Assembly: GCF_003018255.1 (NCBI RefSeq)
Contig: NZ_CP027440.1
Length of the DNA stretch: 64,000 bases
Source: Escherichia coli
GTDB taxonomy: Bacteria > Pseudomonadota > Gammaproteobacteria > Enterobacterales > Enterobacteriaceae
Direction: 5' to 3' (one strand)
A program made the translations under genes and the position numbers. Shown here piece by piece: positions 16,346-21,960 of the stretch. A model generated the notes under the pieces. The model made no database searches, was not told the DNA's origin, and saw only the letters and a program-made list of their open reading frames with translations. The first letter of the stretch is position 1, and every line of letters begins with the position of its first letter.

Positions 16346-17902
16346 TTACTCATCTTCATCGTGCACCGGTTGCTCTTTAACAATGCGAACCAGATCAACA
16401 CGATAATCATTGGCTTCAATGATGGTGATATGCAGTGGCCCTACATCAATCACATCGCCCACACGGGGAATGTGACCATTTGCCGAGATCACGAGGCCCG
16501 CGACCGTCGCGATATCATCGTCATCGGCAAGGTGCTCAACATCAAGCGCCTGCTGCAAGGCATGCAAATCTGTACCGCCTTTTACCAGCCAGCCGTCACC
16601 ATCGGTAATGATTTCCGGCGTTTCGTCTGCGTCCGGGAATTCACCCGCAATGGCTTCCAGCACATCCAGCGGCGTGACCAGACCTTGTACCACACCAAAC
16701 TCGTTGGTCACGATAACAAAGCTCCCGCGAGCACGACGCAGCACGCCCAGCAGGTTGATCGGGTCAAGGGTTTCCGGAACGATAATTGCCGGAGACGCCG
16801 AAGCTATCGCCGCCACATCAACGCCCTCTTCCAGCGCCACCAGCAGTTCTTTAGCACGTACGATACCGATGATTTCATCCAGTTCACCGCGACATACCGG
16901 GAACAGACTGTGCGGTGAGGAGAGCAGCTGCTCGCGGATTTCATCGACCCCGAGATTAGCGTCAACCCAGCTTATTTCACCGCGCGGCGTCATGATCCCG
17001 CGCAGAGAACGCGACGCCAGCGTCAATACGCCGTTAATCATGTAACGTTCTTCTTCGGCAAACGCACCTTCCGGGATCGGCATCGGCATCGGGTTATCGG
17101 CATCGTGCTGAACATTGGCCTGACGTTTCCCGCCCATCAAACGCAGGATGGCATCGGCAGTACGCGCACGCAGCGGCAAAGTCGACTGGTGACGAATAAA
17201 GTTGCGACGCGCAATCTGGTTAAACACTTCGATGATGATCGAGAAGCCAATCGCGGCATACAGGTAACCTTTCGGAATGTGGAAACCGAAACCTTCTGCC
17301 ACCAGACTCAGACCTATCATTAACAGGAAGCTCAGACAGAGCACCACCACCGTTGGATGCTGGTTAACAAATCGCGTCAGCGGTTTCGATGCCAGCAGCA
17401 TAACCGCCATCGCAATCACTACCGCCGCCATCATCACCGGCAGATGGTTAACCATCCCTACTGCCGTAATTACCGCATCCAATGAGAAGACGGCGTCAAG
17501 GATGACAATCTGTGTGACGACCACCCAGAAACTGGCGTAGCCTTTACCGTGGCCGGAATCATGATCGCGGTTTTCCAGCCGTTCATGCAGTTCGGTTGTT
17601 GCTTTGAACAGCAAGAATATCCCCCCGAACAACATAATCAGGTCGCGTCCGGAGAAGGAGAAATCCATGACGGTAAATAGCGGTTTGGTCAGCGTGACCA
17701 TCCATGAAATCAGCGACAGCAGCCCCAGACGCATAATCAGCGCCAGTGATAATCCCAGCAAACGCGCTTTATCGCGTTGTTTTGGCGGCAGTTTGTCAGC
17801 AAGAATGGCGATGAAGACCAGGTTATCGATACCCAGCACAATTTCGAGAACAACAAGCGTGAGTAGCCCCGCCCAAATTGAGGGGTCCATTAAGAATTCC
17901 AT
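16346..17902 (-). CDS. yoaE: TerC-family inner-membrane protein with CBS and CorC-type C-terminal domains (YoaE), 518 aa
   Basis: ORF 16346..17902 minus; N-terminal TM TerC domain then CBS pair. Confidence 0.92.
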
Positions 17903-18364
17903 GACAAGCTCCTGCTTAAGGAATAGCTATTCGACGCCAGAAATAATGCAGGCGTAACGACAAAATGCAAACGAAAGGTGCGGCATAGAGTGCCAGAAAG
18001 ACAGGCGTTAAAAGGCCTGATGCTGAAATGACGTCGGTGACGATCCATACTGCGGGCTACTGCCCTATACTCCATGGTTGTTAAACGGGAGTTAAACATA
18101 TCAGAGACGCCTCTGATTTGGCAAAGATTTACCTTCCTTTGCAAACGAATGTGACAAGGATATTTTACCTTTCGAAATTTCTGCTAATCGAAAGTTAAAT
18201 TACGGATCTTCATCACATAAAATAATTTTTTCGATATCTAAAATAAATCGCGAAACGCAGGGGTTTTTGGTTGTAGCCCTTATCTGAATCGATTCGATTG
18301 TGGACGACGATTCAAAAATACATCTGGCACGTTGAGGTGTTAACGATAATAAAGGAGGTAGCAA

Positions 18365-19336
18365 GTGACCATTGCTATTGTTATAGGCACACATGGTTGG
18401 GCTGCAGAGCAGTTGCTTAAAACCGCAGAAATGCTGTTAGGCGAGCAGGAAAACGTCGGCTGGATCGATTTCGTTCCAGGTGAAAATGCCGAAACGCTGA
18501 TTGAAAAGTACAACGCTCAGTTGGCAAAACTCGACACCACTAAAGGCGTGCTGTTTCTCGTTGATACATGGGGAGGCAGCCCGTTCAATGCTGCCAGCCG
18601 CATTGTCGTCGACAAAGAGCATTATGAAGTCATTGCAGGCGTTAACATTCCAATGCTCGTGGAAACGTTAATGGCCCGTGATGATGACCCAAGCTTTGAT
18701 GAACTGGTGGCGCTGGCAGTAGAAACAGGCCGTGAAGGCGTGAAAGCACTGAAAGCCAAACCGGTTGAAAAAGCCGCGCCAGCACCCGCTGCCGCAGCAC
18801 CAAAAGCGACTCCAACTCCGGCAAAACCAATGGGACCAAACGACTACATGGTTATTGGCCTTGCGCGTATCGACGACCGTCTGATTCACGGTCAGGTCGC
18901 CACCCGCTGGACCAAAGAAACCAATGTCTCCCGTATTATTGTTGTTAGTGATGAAGTGGCTGCGGATACCGTTCGTAAGACACTGCTCACCCAGGTTGCA
19001 CCTCCGGGCGTAACAGCACACGTAGTTGATGTTGCCAAAATGATTCGCGTCTACAACAACCCGAAATATGCTGGCGAACGCGTAATGCTGTTATTTACCA
19101 ACCCAACAGATGTAGAGCGTCTCGTTGAAGGCGGCGTGAAAATCACCTCTGTTAACGTCGGTGGTATGGCATTCCGTCAGGGTAAAACCCAGGTGAATAA
19201 CGCGGTTTCGGTTGATGAAAAAGATATCGAGGCGTTCAAGAAACTGAATGCGCGCGGTATTGAGCTGGAAGTCCGTAAGGTTTCCACCGATCCGAAACTG
19301 AAAATGATGGATCTGATCAGCAAAATCGATAAGTAA
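18365..19336 (+). CDS. manX: Mannose PTS enzyme IIAB (ManX), 323 aa, GTG start
   Basis: ORF 18365..19336; Ala/Pro-rich linker between IIA and IIB domains; SD aaggagg upstream. Confidence 0.95.
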   Translation: MTIAIVIGTHGWAAEQLLKTAEMLLGEQENVGWIDFVPGENAETLIEKYNAQLAKLDTTKGVLFLVDTWGGSPFNAASRIVVDKEHYEVIAGVNIPMLVETLMARDDDPSFDELVALAVETGREGVKALKAKPVEKAAPAPAAAAPKATPTPAKPMGPNDYMVIGLARIDDRLIHGQVATRWTKETNVSRIIVVSDEVAADTVRKTLLTQVAPPGVTAHVVDVAKMIRVYNNPKYAGERVMLLFTNPTDVERLVEGGVKITSVNVGGMAFRQGKTQVNNAVSVDEKDIEAFKKLNARGIELEVRKVSTDPKLKMMDLISKIDK

Positions 19337-19398
19337 CGTATTGTGTTGATTATCACTCAGTTTTCACACTTAAGTCTTACGTAAACAGGAGAAGTACA

Positions 19399-20199
19399 AT
19401 GGAGATTACCACTCTTCAAATTGTGCTGGTATTTATCGTAGCCTGTATCGCAGGTATGGGATCAATCCTCGATGAATTTCAGTTTCACCGTCCGCTAATC
19501 GCGTGTACCCTGGTGGGTATCGTTCTTGGCGATATGAAAACCGGTATTATTATCGGTGGTACGCTGGAAATGATCGCGCTGGGCTGGATGAACATCGGTG
19601 CTGCAGTTGCGCCTGACGCCGCTCTGGCTTCCATCATTTCTACTATTCTGGTTATCGCAGGTCATCAGAGCATTGGTGCAGGTATCGCACTGGCAATCCC
19701 TCTGGCCGCTGCGGGCCAGGTACTGACCATCATCGTTCGTACTATTACCGTTGCTTTCCAGCACGCTGCGGATAAGGCTGCTGATAACGGCAACCTGACA
19801 GCGATTTCCTGGATCCACGTTTCTTCTCTGTTCCTGCAAGCAATGCGTGTGGCTATTCCGGCCGTCATCGTTGCGCTGTCTGTTGGTACCAGCGAAGTAC
19901 AGAACATGCTGAACGCGATTCCGGAAGTGGTGACCAATGGTCTGAATATCGCCGGTGGCATGATCGTGGTGGTTGGTTATGCGATGGTTATCAACATGAT
20001 GCGTGCTGGCTACCTGATGCCGTTCTTCTACCTCGGCTTCGTAACCGCAGCATTCACCAACTTTAACCTGGTTGCTCTGGGTGTGATTGGTACTGTTATG
20101 GCAGTGCTCTACATCCAACTTAGCCCGAAATACAACCGCGTGGCCGGTGCGCCTGCTCAGGCAGCTGGTAACAACGATCTCGATAACGAACTGGACTAA
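19399..20199 (+). CDS. manY: Mannose PTS enzyme IIC (ManY), 266 aa
   Basis: ORF 19399..20199; polytopic membrane protein; SD aggaga upstream. Confidence 0.95.
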   Translation: MEITTLQIVLVFIVACIAGMGSILDEFQFHRPLIACTLVGIVLGDMKTGIIIGGTLEMIALGWMNIGAAVAPDAALASIISTILVIAGHQSIGAGIALAIPLAAAGQVLTIIVRTITVAFQHAADKAADNGNLTAISWIHVSSLFLQAMRVAIPAVIVALSVGTSEVQNMLNAIPEVVTNGLNIAGGMIVVVGYAMVINMMRAGYLMPFFYLGFVTAAFTNFNLVALGVIGTVMAVLYIQLSPKYNRVAGAPAQAAGNNDLDNELD

Positions 20200-21117: not shown

Positions 21118-21576
21118 ATGACAATCACGGACCTGGTACTGATTCTTTTCATCGCCGCACTCCTGGCCTTCGCGATCTACGATCAGTTCATCATGCCCCG
21201 CCGTAACGGCCCCACTCTGCTGGCAATTCCTTTGCTCCGGCGTGGTCGCATCGATAGCGTTATCTTCGTCGGATTGATTGTCATTCTTATCTATAACAAC
21301 GTCACGAATCATGGCGCGCTAATAACAACATGGTTATTAAGTGCACTGGCTCTGATGGGTTTTTATATATTCTGGATCCGCGTTCCGAAGATCATCTTTA
21401 AACAAAAAGGTTTTTTCTTCGCCAATGTCTGGATTGAATATAGCCGAATCAAAGCGATGAACTTGTCGGAAGATGGCGTGTTGGTGATGCAATTAGAACA
21501 GCGTCGGCTGTTAATCCGCGTTCGAAATATCGACGATCTGGAAAAAATTTATAAGCTTCTCGTTTCAACTCAATAA
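21118..21576 (+). CDS. yobD: UPF0266 inner-membrane protein YobD, 152 aa
   Basis: ORF 21118..21576; hydrophobic translation; SD ggagga upstream. Confidence 0.9.
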
Positions 21577-21774: not shown

Positions 21775-21960
21775 CGCCCTCATTTGGGGAGTAGCCGATT
21801 TCCAGATTCCGGAAATGTACGTGTCAACATACTCGTTGCAAAACGTGGCACGTACGGACTGAACACTTTCAGTCAGGCGAGACCATATGCACATCAATCG
21901 CTATGCCTGCATGAACGCGAAAACCATCGCGGTTTGTCGTTCATGTATGCATGTTTGCTG
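21775..21960 (+). ncRNA. mntP 5' leader carrying yybP-ykoY-class Mn(2+) riboswitch (boundaries approximate)
   Basis: Long non-coding leader upstream of mntP containing the GGGGAGTAGCC motif and paired distal elements that I recognise as the yybP-ykoY fold; only short spurious ORFs here. Confidence 0.6.

What the first reader, a model, noticed from the sequence alone, without database searches (positions are those of the whole stretch)
17903..19400. manX leader and manX-manY junction: long regulatory spacer upstream of the mannose PTS
A 462-bp region separates divergent yoaE and manX and is AT-rich near 18180-18300, where CRP and Mlc operators are expected from established knowledge. manX coding sequence and the 62-nt manX-manY spacer (19337-19398, SD aggaga) are known SgrS base-pairing targets. 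I did not verify the operator sequences base by base.
Basis: established knowledge. Interest (0 to 1): 0.3.

Follow-up and report, generated by a model that had tools for sequence, protein, structure and literature searches.

The report
Known E. coli manXYZ control region

Summary
The coordinates are right: yoaE starts at 17902 (−), manX at 18365 (GTG), manY at 19399, and the gaps are 462 and 62 nt. The sequence is E. coli. Both non-coding stretches are base-for-base identical to K-12 MG1655, so published K-12 experiments apply directly.

The AT-rich minimum (GC 0.27) holds a block, 18196–18249, that is nearly invariant in 79 Enterobacteriaceae. It contains:
- a CRP site (18199–18220, centred −40.5 from the published start site at 18250);
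- a perfect Mlc/NagC-type dyad (18226–18246);
- the −10 hexamer.

Both published SgrS sites are present: 18388–18396 in manX and about 19354–19370 in the spacer. Pairing energy alone is weak evidence. Conservation of the sites, including silent codon positions, and published footprints carry the case.

- yoaL (17890–18048, −), an annotated leader ORF coupled to yoaE, with its own conserved promoter, so only about 316 bp is truly intergenic;
- a conserved Cra-box palindrome at 18284–18297 in the manX leader;
- the Hfq site beside the manX ribosome-binding site;
- regulation of manX by DicF.

His proposed CRP consensus scan cannot tell the real site from chance. Verdict: already known, low interest.

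The parts
16346..17902 (-). yoaE (mgpA) coding sequence, a TerC/CNNM-family membrane protein, divergent from manX
   Evidence: ORF list; RefSeq annotation; partial NCBIfam domain matches
17890..18048 (-). yoaL, a 52-codon leader ORF that overlaps the yoaE start by 13 nt (yoaL stop lies 10 nt inside yoaE)
   Evidence: RefSeq b4751. At least 68 of 79 Enterobacteriaceae keep an ORF of 46–55 codons with an MDxHRx start. A stop codon in yoaL strongly lowers yoaE-lacZ (bioRxiv 10.1101/511675).
18095..18124 (-). Candidate sigma-70 promoter of yoaL-yoaE: −35 TTGCCA (18124–18119), 18-nt spacer, TG-extended −10 TATGTT (18100–18095)
   Evidence: Promoter scan. Both hexamers lie in blocks at least 90–95% conserved in 79 species. 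Function is inferred, not shown.
18199..18220 (.). CRP (CAP) site ATTACGGATCTTCATCACATAA. The promoter-proximal half TCACA is perfect and the distal half ACGGA is degenerate. The centre is at 18209.5, which is −40.5 from the transcription start (class II position).
   Evidence: Sequence. Start site from the 115-nt 5'UTR (PMC3089445). 18 of 22 positions are at least 90% identical to the window base in 79 species, including the degenerate half. manX is a CRP genomic-SELEX target (PMC3105977). The '−40.5' figure agrees with my recollection of Plumbridge & Kolb 1991 and Plumbridge 1998, which I could not read here.
18226..18246 (.). Mlc/NagC-type operator TTTTTTC-GATATCT-AAAATAA, overlapping the −10 hexamer (centre about −14)
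   Evidence: Only match with 0 or 1 mismatches to TTWTTTY-N7-RAAAWAA in the 64-kb window. The same pattern finds two sites in the ptsG promoter used as a positive control. The arms are invariant and the centre is variable across 79 species. Repression of manXYZ by Mlc and NagC is in the literature.
18239..18250 (+). −10 hexamer TAAAAT (18239–18244) and transcription start at 18250
   Evidence: 115-nt 5'UTR (PMC3089445); hexamer invariant in 79 species
18284..18297 (.). Cra (FruR)-box-like palindrome CTGAATCGATTCGA at +35..+48 of the leader
   Evidence: 2 mismatches to CTGAAWCGWTTCAG; 4 such matches in the window against 0.7 expected. The pattern finds the two fruB operators used as a positive control. 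Positions 18284–18294 are at least 95% conserved. Cra binds and represses PmanX in Salmonella (PMC10100716).
18342..18358 (+). A/U-rich Hfq-binding motif (about 18342–18352, AACGATAATAA) next to the Shine-Dalgarno AGGAGG (18353–18358)
   Evidence: Azam & Vanderpool (PMC5861419) describe an A/U-rich motif directly upstream of the RBS. The exact limits are my reading of the sequence.
18365..19336 (+). manX coding sequence (PTS EIIAB-Man), GTG start
18384..18403 (+). SgrS pairing site in manX codons 7–13. The published footprint C139–G147 corresponds to 18388–18396 (CACACAUGG).
   Evidence: PMC3089445. Predicted duplex with SgrS 156–177, total −8.8 kcal/mol. Third-codon-position conservation is the highest of the first 130 codons.
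19337..19398 (+). manX–manY spacer. Contains the SgrS site and the U-rich, S1-dependent translation enhancer (predicted duplex 19354–19370; conserved block 19361–19374 TTTTCACACTTAAG), SD AGGAGA 19387–19392, and is followed by the manY ATG at 19399.
   Evidence: bioRxiv 10.1101/808485. This is the best accessibility-corrected SgrS site in the whole mRNA, −12.4 kcal/mol, reached by 5 of 200 local shuffles. Conservation.
19399..20199 (+). manY coding sequence (EIIC-Man)

Best explanation
The region is the divergent yoaL-yoaE / manXYZ control region of E. coli and works as already described for K-12.

Transcription of manXYZ starts at 18250 from a promoter with a good −10 (TAAAAT) and no −35. It depends on cAMP-CRP bound at 18199–18220 (class II position, −40.5). 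It is repressed by Mlc, and more weakly by NagC, bound to the dyad at 18226–18246, which covers the −10. It is probably further repressed by Cra bound to the palindrome at +35..+48.

The 115-nt leader carries an A/U-rich Hfq site next to the ribosome-binding site. Under sugar-phosphate stress, SgrS pairs with manX codons 8–11 (18388–18396) and recruits Hfq to block initiation. SgrS also pairs about 30 nt upstream of manY (about 19354–19370) and masks a U-rich enhancer that ribosomal protein S1 uses, so manY and manZ translation falls.

The left third of the 'spacer' serves the other strand: a conserved promoter (18124–18095) and the leader ORF yoaL, whose translation is coupled to that of yoaE.

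Basis of each step:
- Shown here: identity to K-12, motif positions and conservation.
- Shown in the literature: the start site, SgrS footprints and compensatory mutants, the roles of Hfq and S1, CRP and Mlc regulation, Cra binding in Salmonella, and yoaL–yoaE coupling.
- Inferred: the exact operator limits, Cra action in E. coli, and the yoaL promoter.
For: Both regulatory stretches are identical to K-12 and the locus is present in 5423 of 5426 E. coli genomes.

Promoter and operators:
- Alignment of 79 distinct Enterobacteriaceae upstream regions shows a near-invariant block at 18196–18249 and another at 18284–18295, set in diverged flanks.
- The Mlc/NagC pattern is perfect and unique in the window and is validated on ptsG.
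- The Cra pattern is validated on fruB and enriched in the window.

SgrS sites:
- The spacer site is the best accessibility-corrected duplex in the 2.9-kb mRNA and is reached by 5 of 200 local shuffles.
- Its core TTTTCACACTTAAG is conserved although spacer length varies from 46 to 76 nt.
- In manX, silent-site conservation peaks exactly at the SgrS footprint (ranks 1 and 2 of 121 windows).
- SgrS nt 162–187 are identical in both E. coli SgrS allele classes.

Literature.
Against: - The CRP site is not distinguishable from chance by consensus matching (3 mismatches). Its assignment rests on position, conservation and papers I could not open.
- SgrS pairing energy is not significant for the whole transcript (6 of 24 shuffles reach it). 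The manX site is unremarkable by energy (21 of 200 shuffles; fifth-ranked in the mRNA).
- The Mlc/NagC and Cra consensus patterns were written from memory, though both passed positive controls.
- A second Mlc/NagC operator could not be placed; only 3-mismatch candidates exist, at 18160–18180 and 18205–18225.
- I found no accessible paper showing Cra binding to the E. coli fragment.
- SgrS is not in the window, so its allele in this genome is unknown.
Confidence: 0.93

Rival explanations
1. The whole 462 bp is a dedicated manX regulatory spacer, and yoaL is an annotation artefact.
For: The yoaL peptide has no NCBIfam family, its middle part is poorly conserved, and it has no obvious Shine-Dalgarno sequence.
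Against: At least 68 of 79 species keep the ORF, its MDRHRR start and its 10-nt read-in to yoaE. Ribosome profiling and a stop-codon mutant show it is translated and needed for yoaE expression. A conserved minus-strand promoter lies at 18095–18124. Positions 18150–18195 are poorly conserved, so the manX-specific part is short.
Confidence: 0.04
2. The invariant block at 18284–18295 acts as RNA, forming the 5' arm of a leader hairpin (GAAUCG…CGAUUC, 18285–18314) that affects mRNA stability or translation, and is not a Cra operator.
For: The minimum-energy fold pairs 18285–18291 with 18308–18314. For the six pairs 18286–18291 with 18308–18313, 86–99% of the 79 species keep a standard pair. This includes 35 one-sided changes to G·U: 5 at 18286/18313, 14 at 18289/18310 and 16 at 18291/18308.
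Against: The leader as a whole folds no better than shuffles (z −0.11). The 5' arm is far more conserved than the 3' arm, and there are no double compensatory changes. The block is a near-perfect Cra palindrome like the fruB operators. Cra binds PmanX and represses manXYZ in Salmonella. The two roles are not mutually exclusive.
Confidence: 0.2
3. The SgrS complementarity in this window is coincidental sequence similarity without regulatory consequence.
For: Energies as good as the best site arise in 6 of 24 shuffled mRNAs. The manX site is reached by 21 of 200 local shuffles and ranks fifth.
Against: The sequence is identical to the K-12 mRNA on which footprints, compensatory mutations (C143T with SgrS26), toeprints and enhancer mutagenesis were done. 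Silent-site conservation peaks at the manX site. The spacer core is conserved across genera. The SgrS seed is invariant in E. coli.
Confidence: 0.02

Closest known systems
E. coli K-12 manXYZ promoter/operator region (Plumbridge & Kolb 1991; Plumbridge 1998)
   Same: Base-for-base identical over 18049–18364. The CRP site at −40.5 and the Mlc/NagC operator over the −10 are where expected.
   Different: Nothing differs in the non-coding DNA. The five differences from K-12 lie in yoaL (18001) and the manX coding sequence (18424, 18712, 18809, 18835).
SgrS–manXYZ dual-site regulation (Rice & Vanderpool 2011; Rice et al. 2012; Azam & Vanderpool 2018, 2020)
   Same: Both target sites, the Hfq motif, the weak GTG start and the U-rich enhancer are present and unchanged.
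   Different: None detected. SgrS itself lies outside the window.
ptsG promoter (Mlc regulon) and fruBKA operators (Cra regulon)
   Same: The same operator patterns are found: ptsG with 1–2 mismatches and fruB with 1 mismatch at each of two sites.
   Different: manX combines CRP, Mlc/NagC and a single downstream Cra-like box. ptsG is hit by SgrS at its ribosome-binding site, whereas manX is hit inside the coding sequence through Hfq recruitment.
Leader-ORF translational coupling (e.g. mgtL-mgtA; pssL-pssA in Weaver et al. 2019)
   Same: yoaL overlaps the start of yoaE, and its translation is required for yoaE expression.
   Different: No signal, stalling motif or attenuator has been shown for yoaL. 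The conserved MDRHRR start is unexplained.

Membership tests
Class II CRP-dependent promoter | 22-bp CRP site resembling AAATGTGATCTAGATCACATTT | tested here: inconclusive
   The right half TCACA is perfect and the left half is ACGGA. There are 3 core mismatches, a level no better than chance in this window (196 found against 232 expected).
Class II CRP-dependent promoter | Site centred near −41.5, overlapping the −35, with no good −35 hexamer | tested here: met
   The centre at 18209.5 is −40.5 from the start site at 18250, derived from the 115-nt UTR. The sigma-70 scan finds no plus-strand promoter with a −35.
Class II CRP-dependent promoter | CRP binds and activates | not testable with these tools
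   Literature only: genomic SELEX lists manX (PMC3105977); co-activation by Crp is reported in PMC8085971. The near-invariance of the site in 79 species is consistent with this.
Mlc/NagC (ROK-family) operator | About 23-bp dyad with T-rich and A-rich arms (TT at −5/−6, AA at +5/+6) | tested here: met
   18226–18246 matches TTWTTTY-N7-RAAAWAA with 0 mismatches and is the only match with 1 mismatch or fewer in 64 kb. The pattern is from memory but recovers the ptsG sites. T at −5/−6 is stated in PMC2806358.
Mlc/NagC (ROK-family) operator | A/T at ±11 (Mlc type) rather than C/G (NagC type) | tested here: met
   With the centre at 18236, −11 is A (18225) and +11 is A (18247). The rule comes from PMC4288165.
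Mlc/NagC (ROK-family) operator | Repressor binding, and a second cooperating operator | tested here: inconclusive
   Repression is in the literature. Only 3-mismatch candidates exist for a second site, at 18160–18180 and 18205–18225. The primary footprinting papers are not held.
SgrS target mRNA | Complementarity to the SgrS seed (nt ~163–187) | tested here: met
   Duplexes 19354–19370 with SgrS 167–180, and 18384–18403 with SgrS 156–177. Significance is modest (5 of 200 and 21 of 200 shuffles).
SgrS target mRNA | Hfq-dependent repression proven by footprint and compensatory mutation | not testable with these tools
   Published for the identical K-12 sequence.
SgrS target mRNA | Target site under selection | tested here: met
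   The silent-site conservation peak covers codons 7–11. The spacer core is conserved despite length variation.
Cra (FruR) operator | Palindrome resembling GCTGAAWCGWTTCAGC | tested here: met
   CTGAATCGATTCGA has 2 mismatches. The fruB control sites have 1 mismatch each. Positions 18284–18294 are at least 95% conserved.
Cra (FruR) operator | Cra binding and effect in E. coli | not tested
   Only Salmonella gel-shift and Δcra data were found. The position of their predicted box is given only in a figure image.
Translationally coupled leader ORF (yoaL) | Translated upstream ORF overlapping the downstream start, and required for its expression | tested here: met
   The 13-nt overlap is seen. The ORF is conserved in at least 68 of 79 species. 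Translation and coupling come from the literature.

The most novel reading that the evidence does not exclude
Its near-invariant N-terminus MDRHRR(H/L/Q)F, followed by a free-drifting middle, would fit a nascent-peptide or ribosome-destabilising sensor. Such a sensor could set yoaE (mgpA) expression according to Mg2+ or cation status, as PMC12421838 speculates. Separately, the invariant element at +35 of the manX leader could serve both as a Cra operator in DNA and as a stem-loop in RNA.
Probability: 0.2. Interest if true: 0.4.

Novelty: already known. Interest (0 to 1): 0.1.

Why it matters
It matters little for discovery, because manXYZ is a textbook example of CRP/Mlc control and of non-canonical sRNA repression. 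The check is useful mainly as calibration:
- It shows that consensus-string and pairing-energy tests do not discriminate here, while cross-species footprints and silent-site conservation do.
- It corrects the map of the interval by adding yoaL, its promoter, and the Cra box.

Tried and rejected
- Plain duplex energies without accessibility ranked GC-rich coding stretches above the true sites and were dropped.
- The TGTGA-N6-TCACA scan at up to 3 mismatches was uninformative. Its best local match (19342–19357, 2 mismatches) sits in an unconserved part of the spacer and was dismissed as chance.
- Rfam found no RNA family in 17903–19400.
- Folding of the leader, the spacer and the yoaL leader gave z-scores near 0.
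- The inverted repeat CTTTCGA-N12-TCGAAAG (18169–18194), which I first took for a second operator, is poorly conserved.
- Plumbridge 1998, Plumbridge 2001, El Qaidi 2008 and Shimada 2011 could not be opened, so exact footprint limits and Cra data for E. coli are unverified.
- I could not reconcile the Weaver et al. remark that yoaL was first annotated 13 codons upstream with any ATG in this sequence.

Full report
**Observation.** yoaE runs on the minus strand and starts at 17902. manX starts with GTG at 18365 and stops at 19336. manY starts at 19399. This leaves gaps of 462 and 62 nt, with AGGAGA at 19387–19392. GC content falls to 0.27–0.30 over 18180–18269. The 1498 bases occur once in 5423 of 5426 complete E. 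coli genomes. They differ from K-12 MG1655 at 5 of 1541 aligned positions, and none of these lies in 18049–18364 or 19337–19398. K-12 experiments therefore apply directly (window coordinate = K-12 coordinate − 1,883,683). ManX is confirmed by NCBIfam NF011670.

RefSeq annotates yoaL (b4751, 52 codons) at 17890–18048 on the minus strand, overlapping the yoaE start by 13 nt.
- Across 79 Enterobacteriaceae, at least 68 keep this ORF. It is 46–55 codons long, has a near-invariant MDRHRR(H/L/Q)F start and a drifting middle, and reads into yoaE in the same way.
- Weaver et al. showed that a stop codon in yoaL strongly lowers yoaE-lacZ.
- A 2025 Salmonella paper renames yoaE as mgpA and suggests YoaL may mediate Mg2+ control.
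- A sigma-70-like promoter on the minus strand (TTGCCA, 18 nt, TG-TATGTT; 18124–18095) sits in conserved blocks.

About 316 bp is truly intergenic, and its left part serves yoaL-yoaE.

**manX promoter.** Rice & Vanderpool give a 115-nt 5'UTR, which puts the transcription start at 18250. An invariant TAAAAT lies at 18239–18244, and there is no −35.
- *Cross-species footprint.* I fetched 80 manX loci from species-representative genomes and aligned the 330 nt upstream. Positions 18196–18249 are almost invariant, while 18150–18195 and 18253–18280 drift.
- *CRP site.* The block holds ATTACGGATCTTCATCACATAA (18199–18220). Its TCACA half is perfect and its ACGGA half is degenerate but equally conserved. 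The centre is −40.5, a class II position, and this matches my recollection of Plumbridge's mapping. CRP binding to manX is supported by genomic SELEX and expression data.
- *Mlc/NagC operator.* Next to the CRP site, TTTTTTC-GATATCT-AAAATAA (18226–18246) matches a Mlc/NagC-type pattern perfectly. It is the only match with 1 mismatch or fewer in 64 kb. The same pattern, written from memory, recovers two sites in the ptsG promoter. The arms are invariant and the centre varies, as expected for a dyad operator. It covers the −10, which explains repression. A second operator could not be placed with confidence.

**Leader.** A second invariant block, CTGAATCGATTC (18284–18295, +35..+46), is a Cra/FruR-type palindrome.
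- It has 2 mismatches to CTGAAWCGWTTCAG, with 4 such matches in the window against 0.7 expected.
- The pattern finds both fruB operators.
- Cra binds PmanX and represses manXYZ in Salmonella.

It can also pair with CGATTC at 18308–18313 in the RNA. However, the 5' arm is the more conserved one and the leader is not unusually structured (z −0.11). I therefore favour the DNA reading, without excluding a dual role. An A/U-rich Hfq site lies directly upstream of the AGGAGG ribosome-binding site.

**SgrS.** SgrS is not in the window, so I took the K-12 sequence. I scored each candidate duplex by adding the energy needed to unfold both strands to its pairing energy.
- *Energy.* The best site in the 2.9-kb mRNA is 19354–19370 with SgrS 167–180 (−12.4 kcal/mol). 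The published manX site (18384–18403; footprint 18388–18396) ranks fifth at −8.8. Local shuffles reach these values in 5 of 200 and 21 of 200 trials, and whole-mRNA shuffles reach −12.4 in 6 of 24. Complementarity alone is therefore weak evidence.
- *Conservation.* Third-codon-position conservation across 80 species peaks exactly at manX codons 7–11 (0.95 and 0.92 against a mean of 0.64; ranks 1 and 2 of 121 windows). The spacer core TTTTCACACTTAAG is conserved although spacer length varies from 46 to 76 nt.
- *Partner.* SgrS nt 162–187 are identical in both E. coli allele classes.
- *Published mechanism.* Footprints and compensatory mutants support the manX site. Hfq recruitment to the ribosome-binding site explains repression of manX, and DicF is a second sRNA acting there. 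Masking of an S1-dependent enhancer explains repression of manY.

**Verdict.** Everything central is already published for an identical sequence. Novelty is 'already known' and interest is about 0.1. The only open threads are the role of the conserved YoaL N-terminus and whether the +35 element acts as DNA, RNA or both.

Noticed in passing
window 21778-21874 (+): Rfam manganese riboswitch (RF00080, yybP-ykoY) match at 41.9 bits, just under the gathering score of 45 (E 6e-9). It lies upstream of mntP and is the known mntP leader riboswitch.
   Followed up: no
window 19342-19357: TGTGTTGATTATCACT matches the CRP core with only 2 mismatches, better than the real manX promoter site. It lies in the unconserved half of the manX–manY spacer, so it is probably chance.
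   Followed up: partly
window 18225: E. coli carries an extra A between the CRP site and the Mlc/NagC dyad relative to 53 of 79 Enterobacteriaceae. The CRP-to-−10 spacing therefore differs by 1 bp between genera.
   Followed up: no
window 18285-18314 (+): GAAUCG…CGAUUC can form a hairpin in the manX 5'UTR. For the six pairs 18286–18291 with 18308–18313, 86–99% of 79 species keep a standard pair, and 35 one-sided changes give G·U. There are no double compensatory changes, and the 5' arm is the invariant one.
   Followed up: partly
sgrS locus outside the window (L003 368-594; L086): E. coli genomes fall into two SgrS allele classes: 3230 at 99% identity or more to K-12, and 2157 at 80–90%. The alleles differ around nt 132–161 and 188–212 but are identical over the seed, nt 162–187.
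   Followed up: partly
window 18383-18397 (+): The rare Ile codon ATA (codon 7) and the silent positions of codons 8–11 of manX are 88–99% conserved in 80 species. These codons encode the Gly-Thr-His-Gly motif and coincide with the SgrS footprint.
   Followed up: yes
window 17890-18048 (-): YoaL has a near-invariant N-terminus MDRHRR(H/L/Q)F and a conserved C-terminal SWNS that overlies the yoaE start, while its middle drifts freely. No family match was found. This pattern suggests a cis-acting leader peptide.
   Followed up: partly
window 21118-21576 (+): yobD (DUF986) directly follows manZ. A paper reports that it is co-transcribed with manXYZ and belongs to the Mlc regulon (PMC8085971), so the promoter studied here probably drives four genes.
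   Followed up: no
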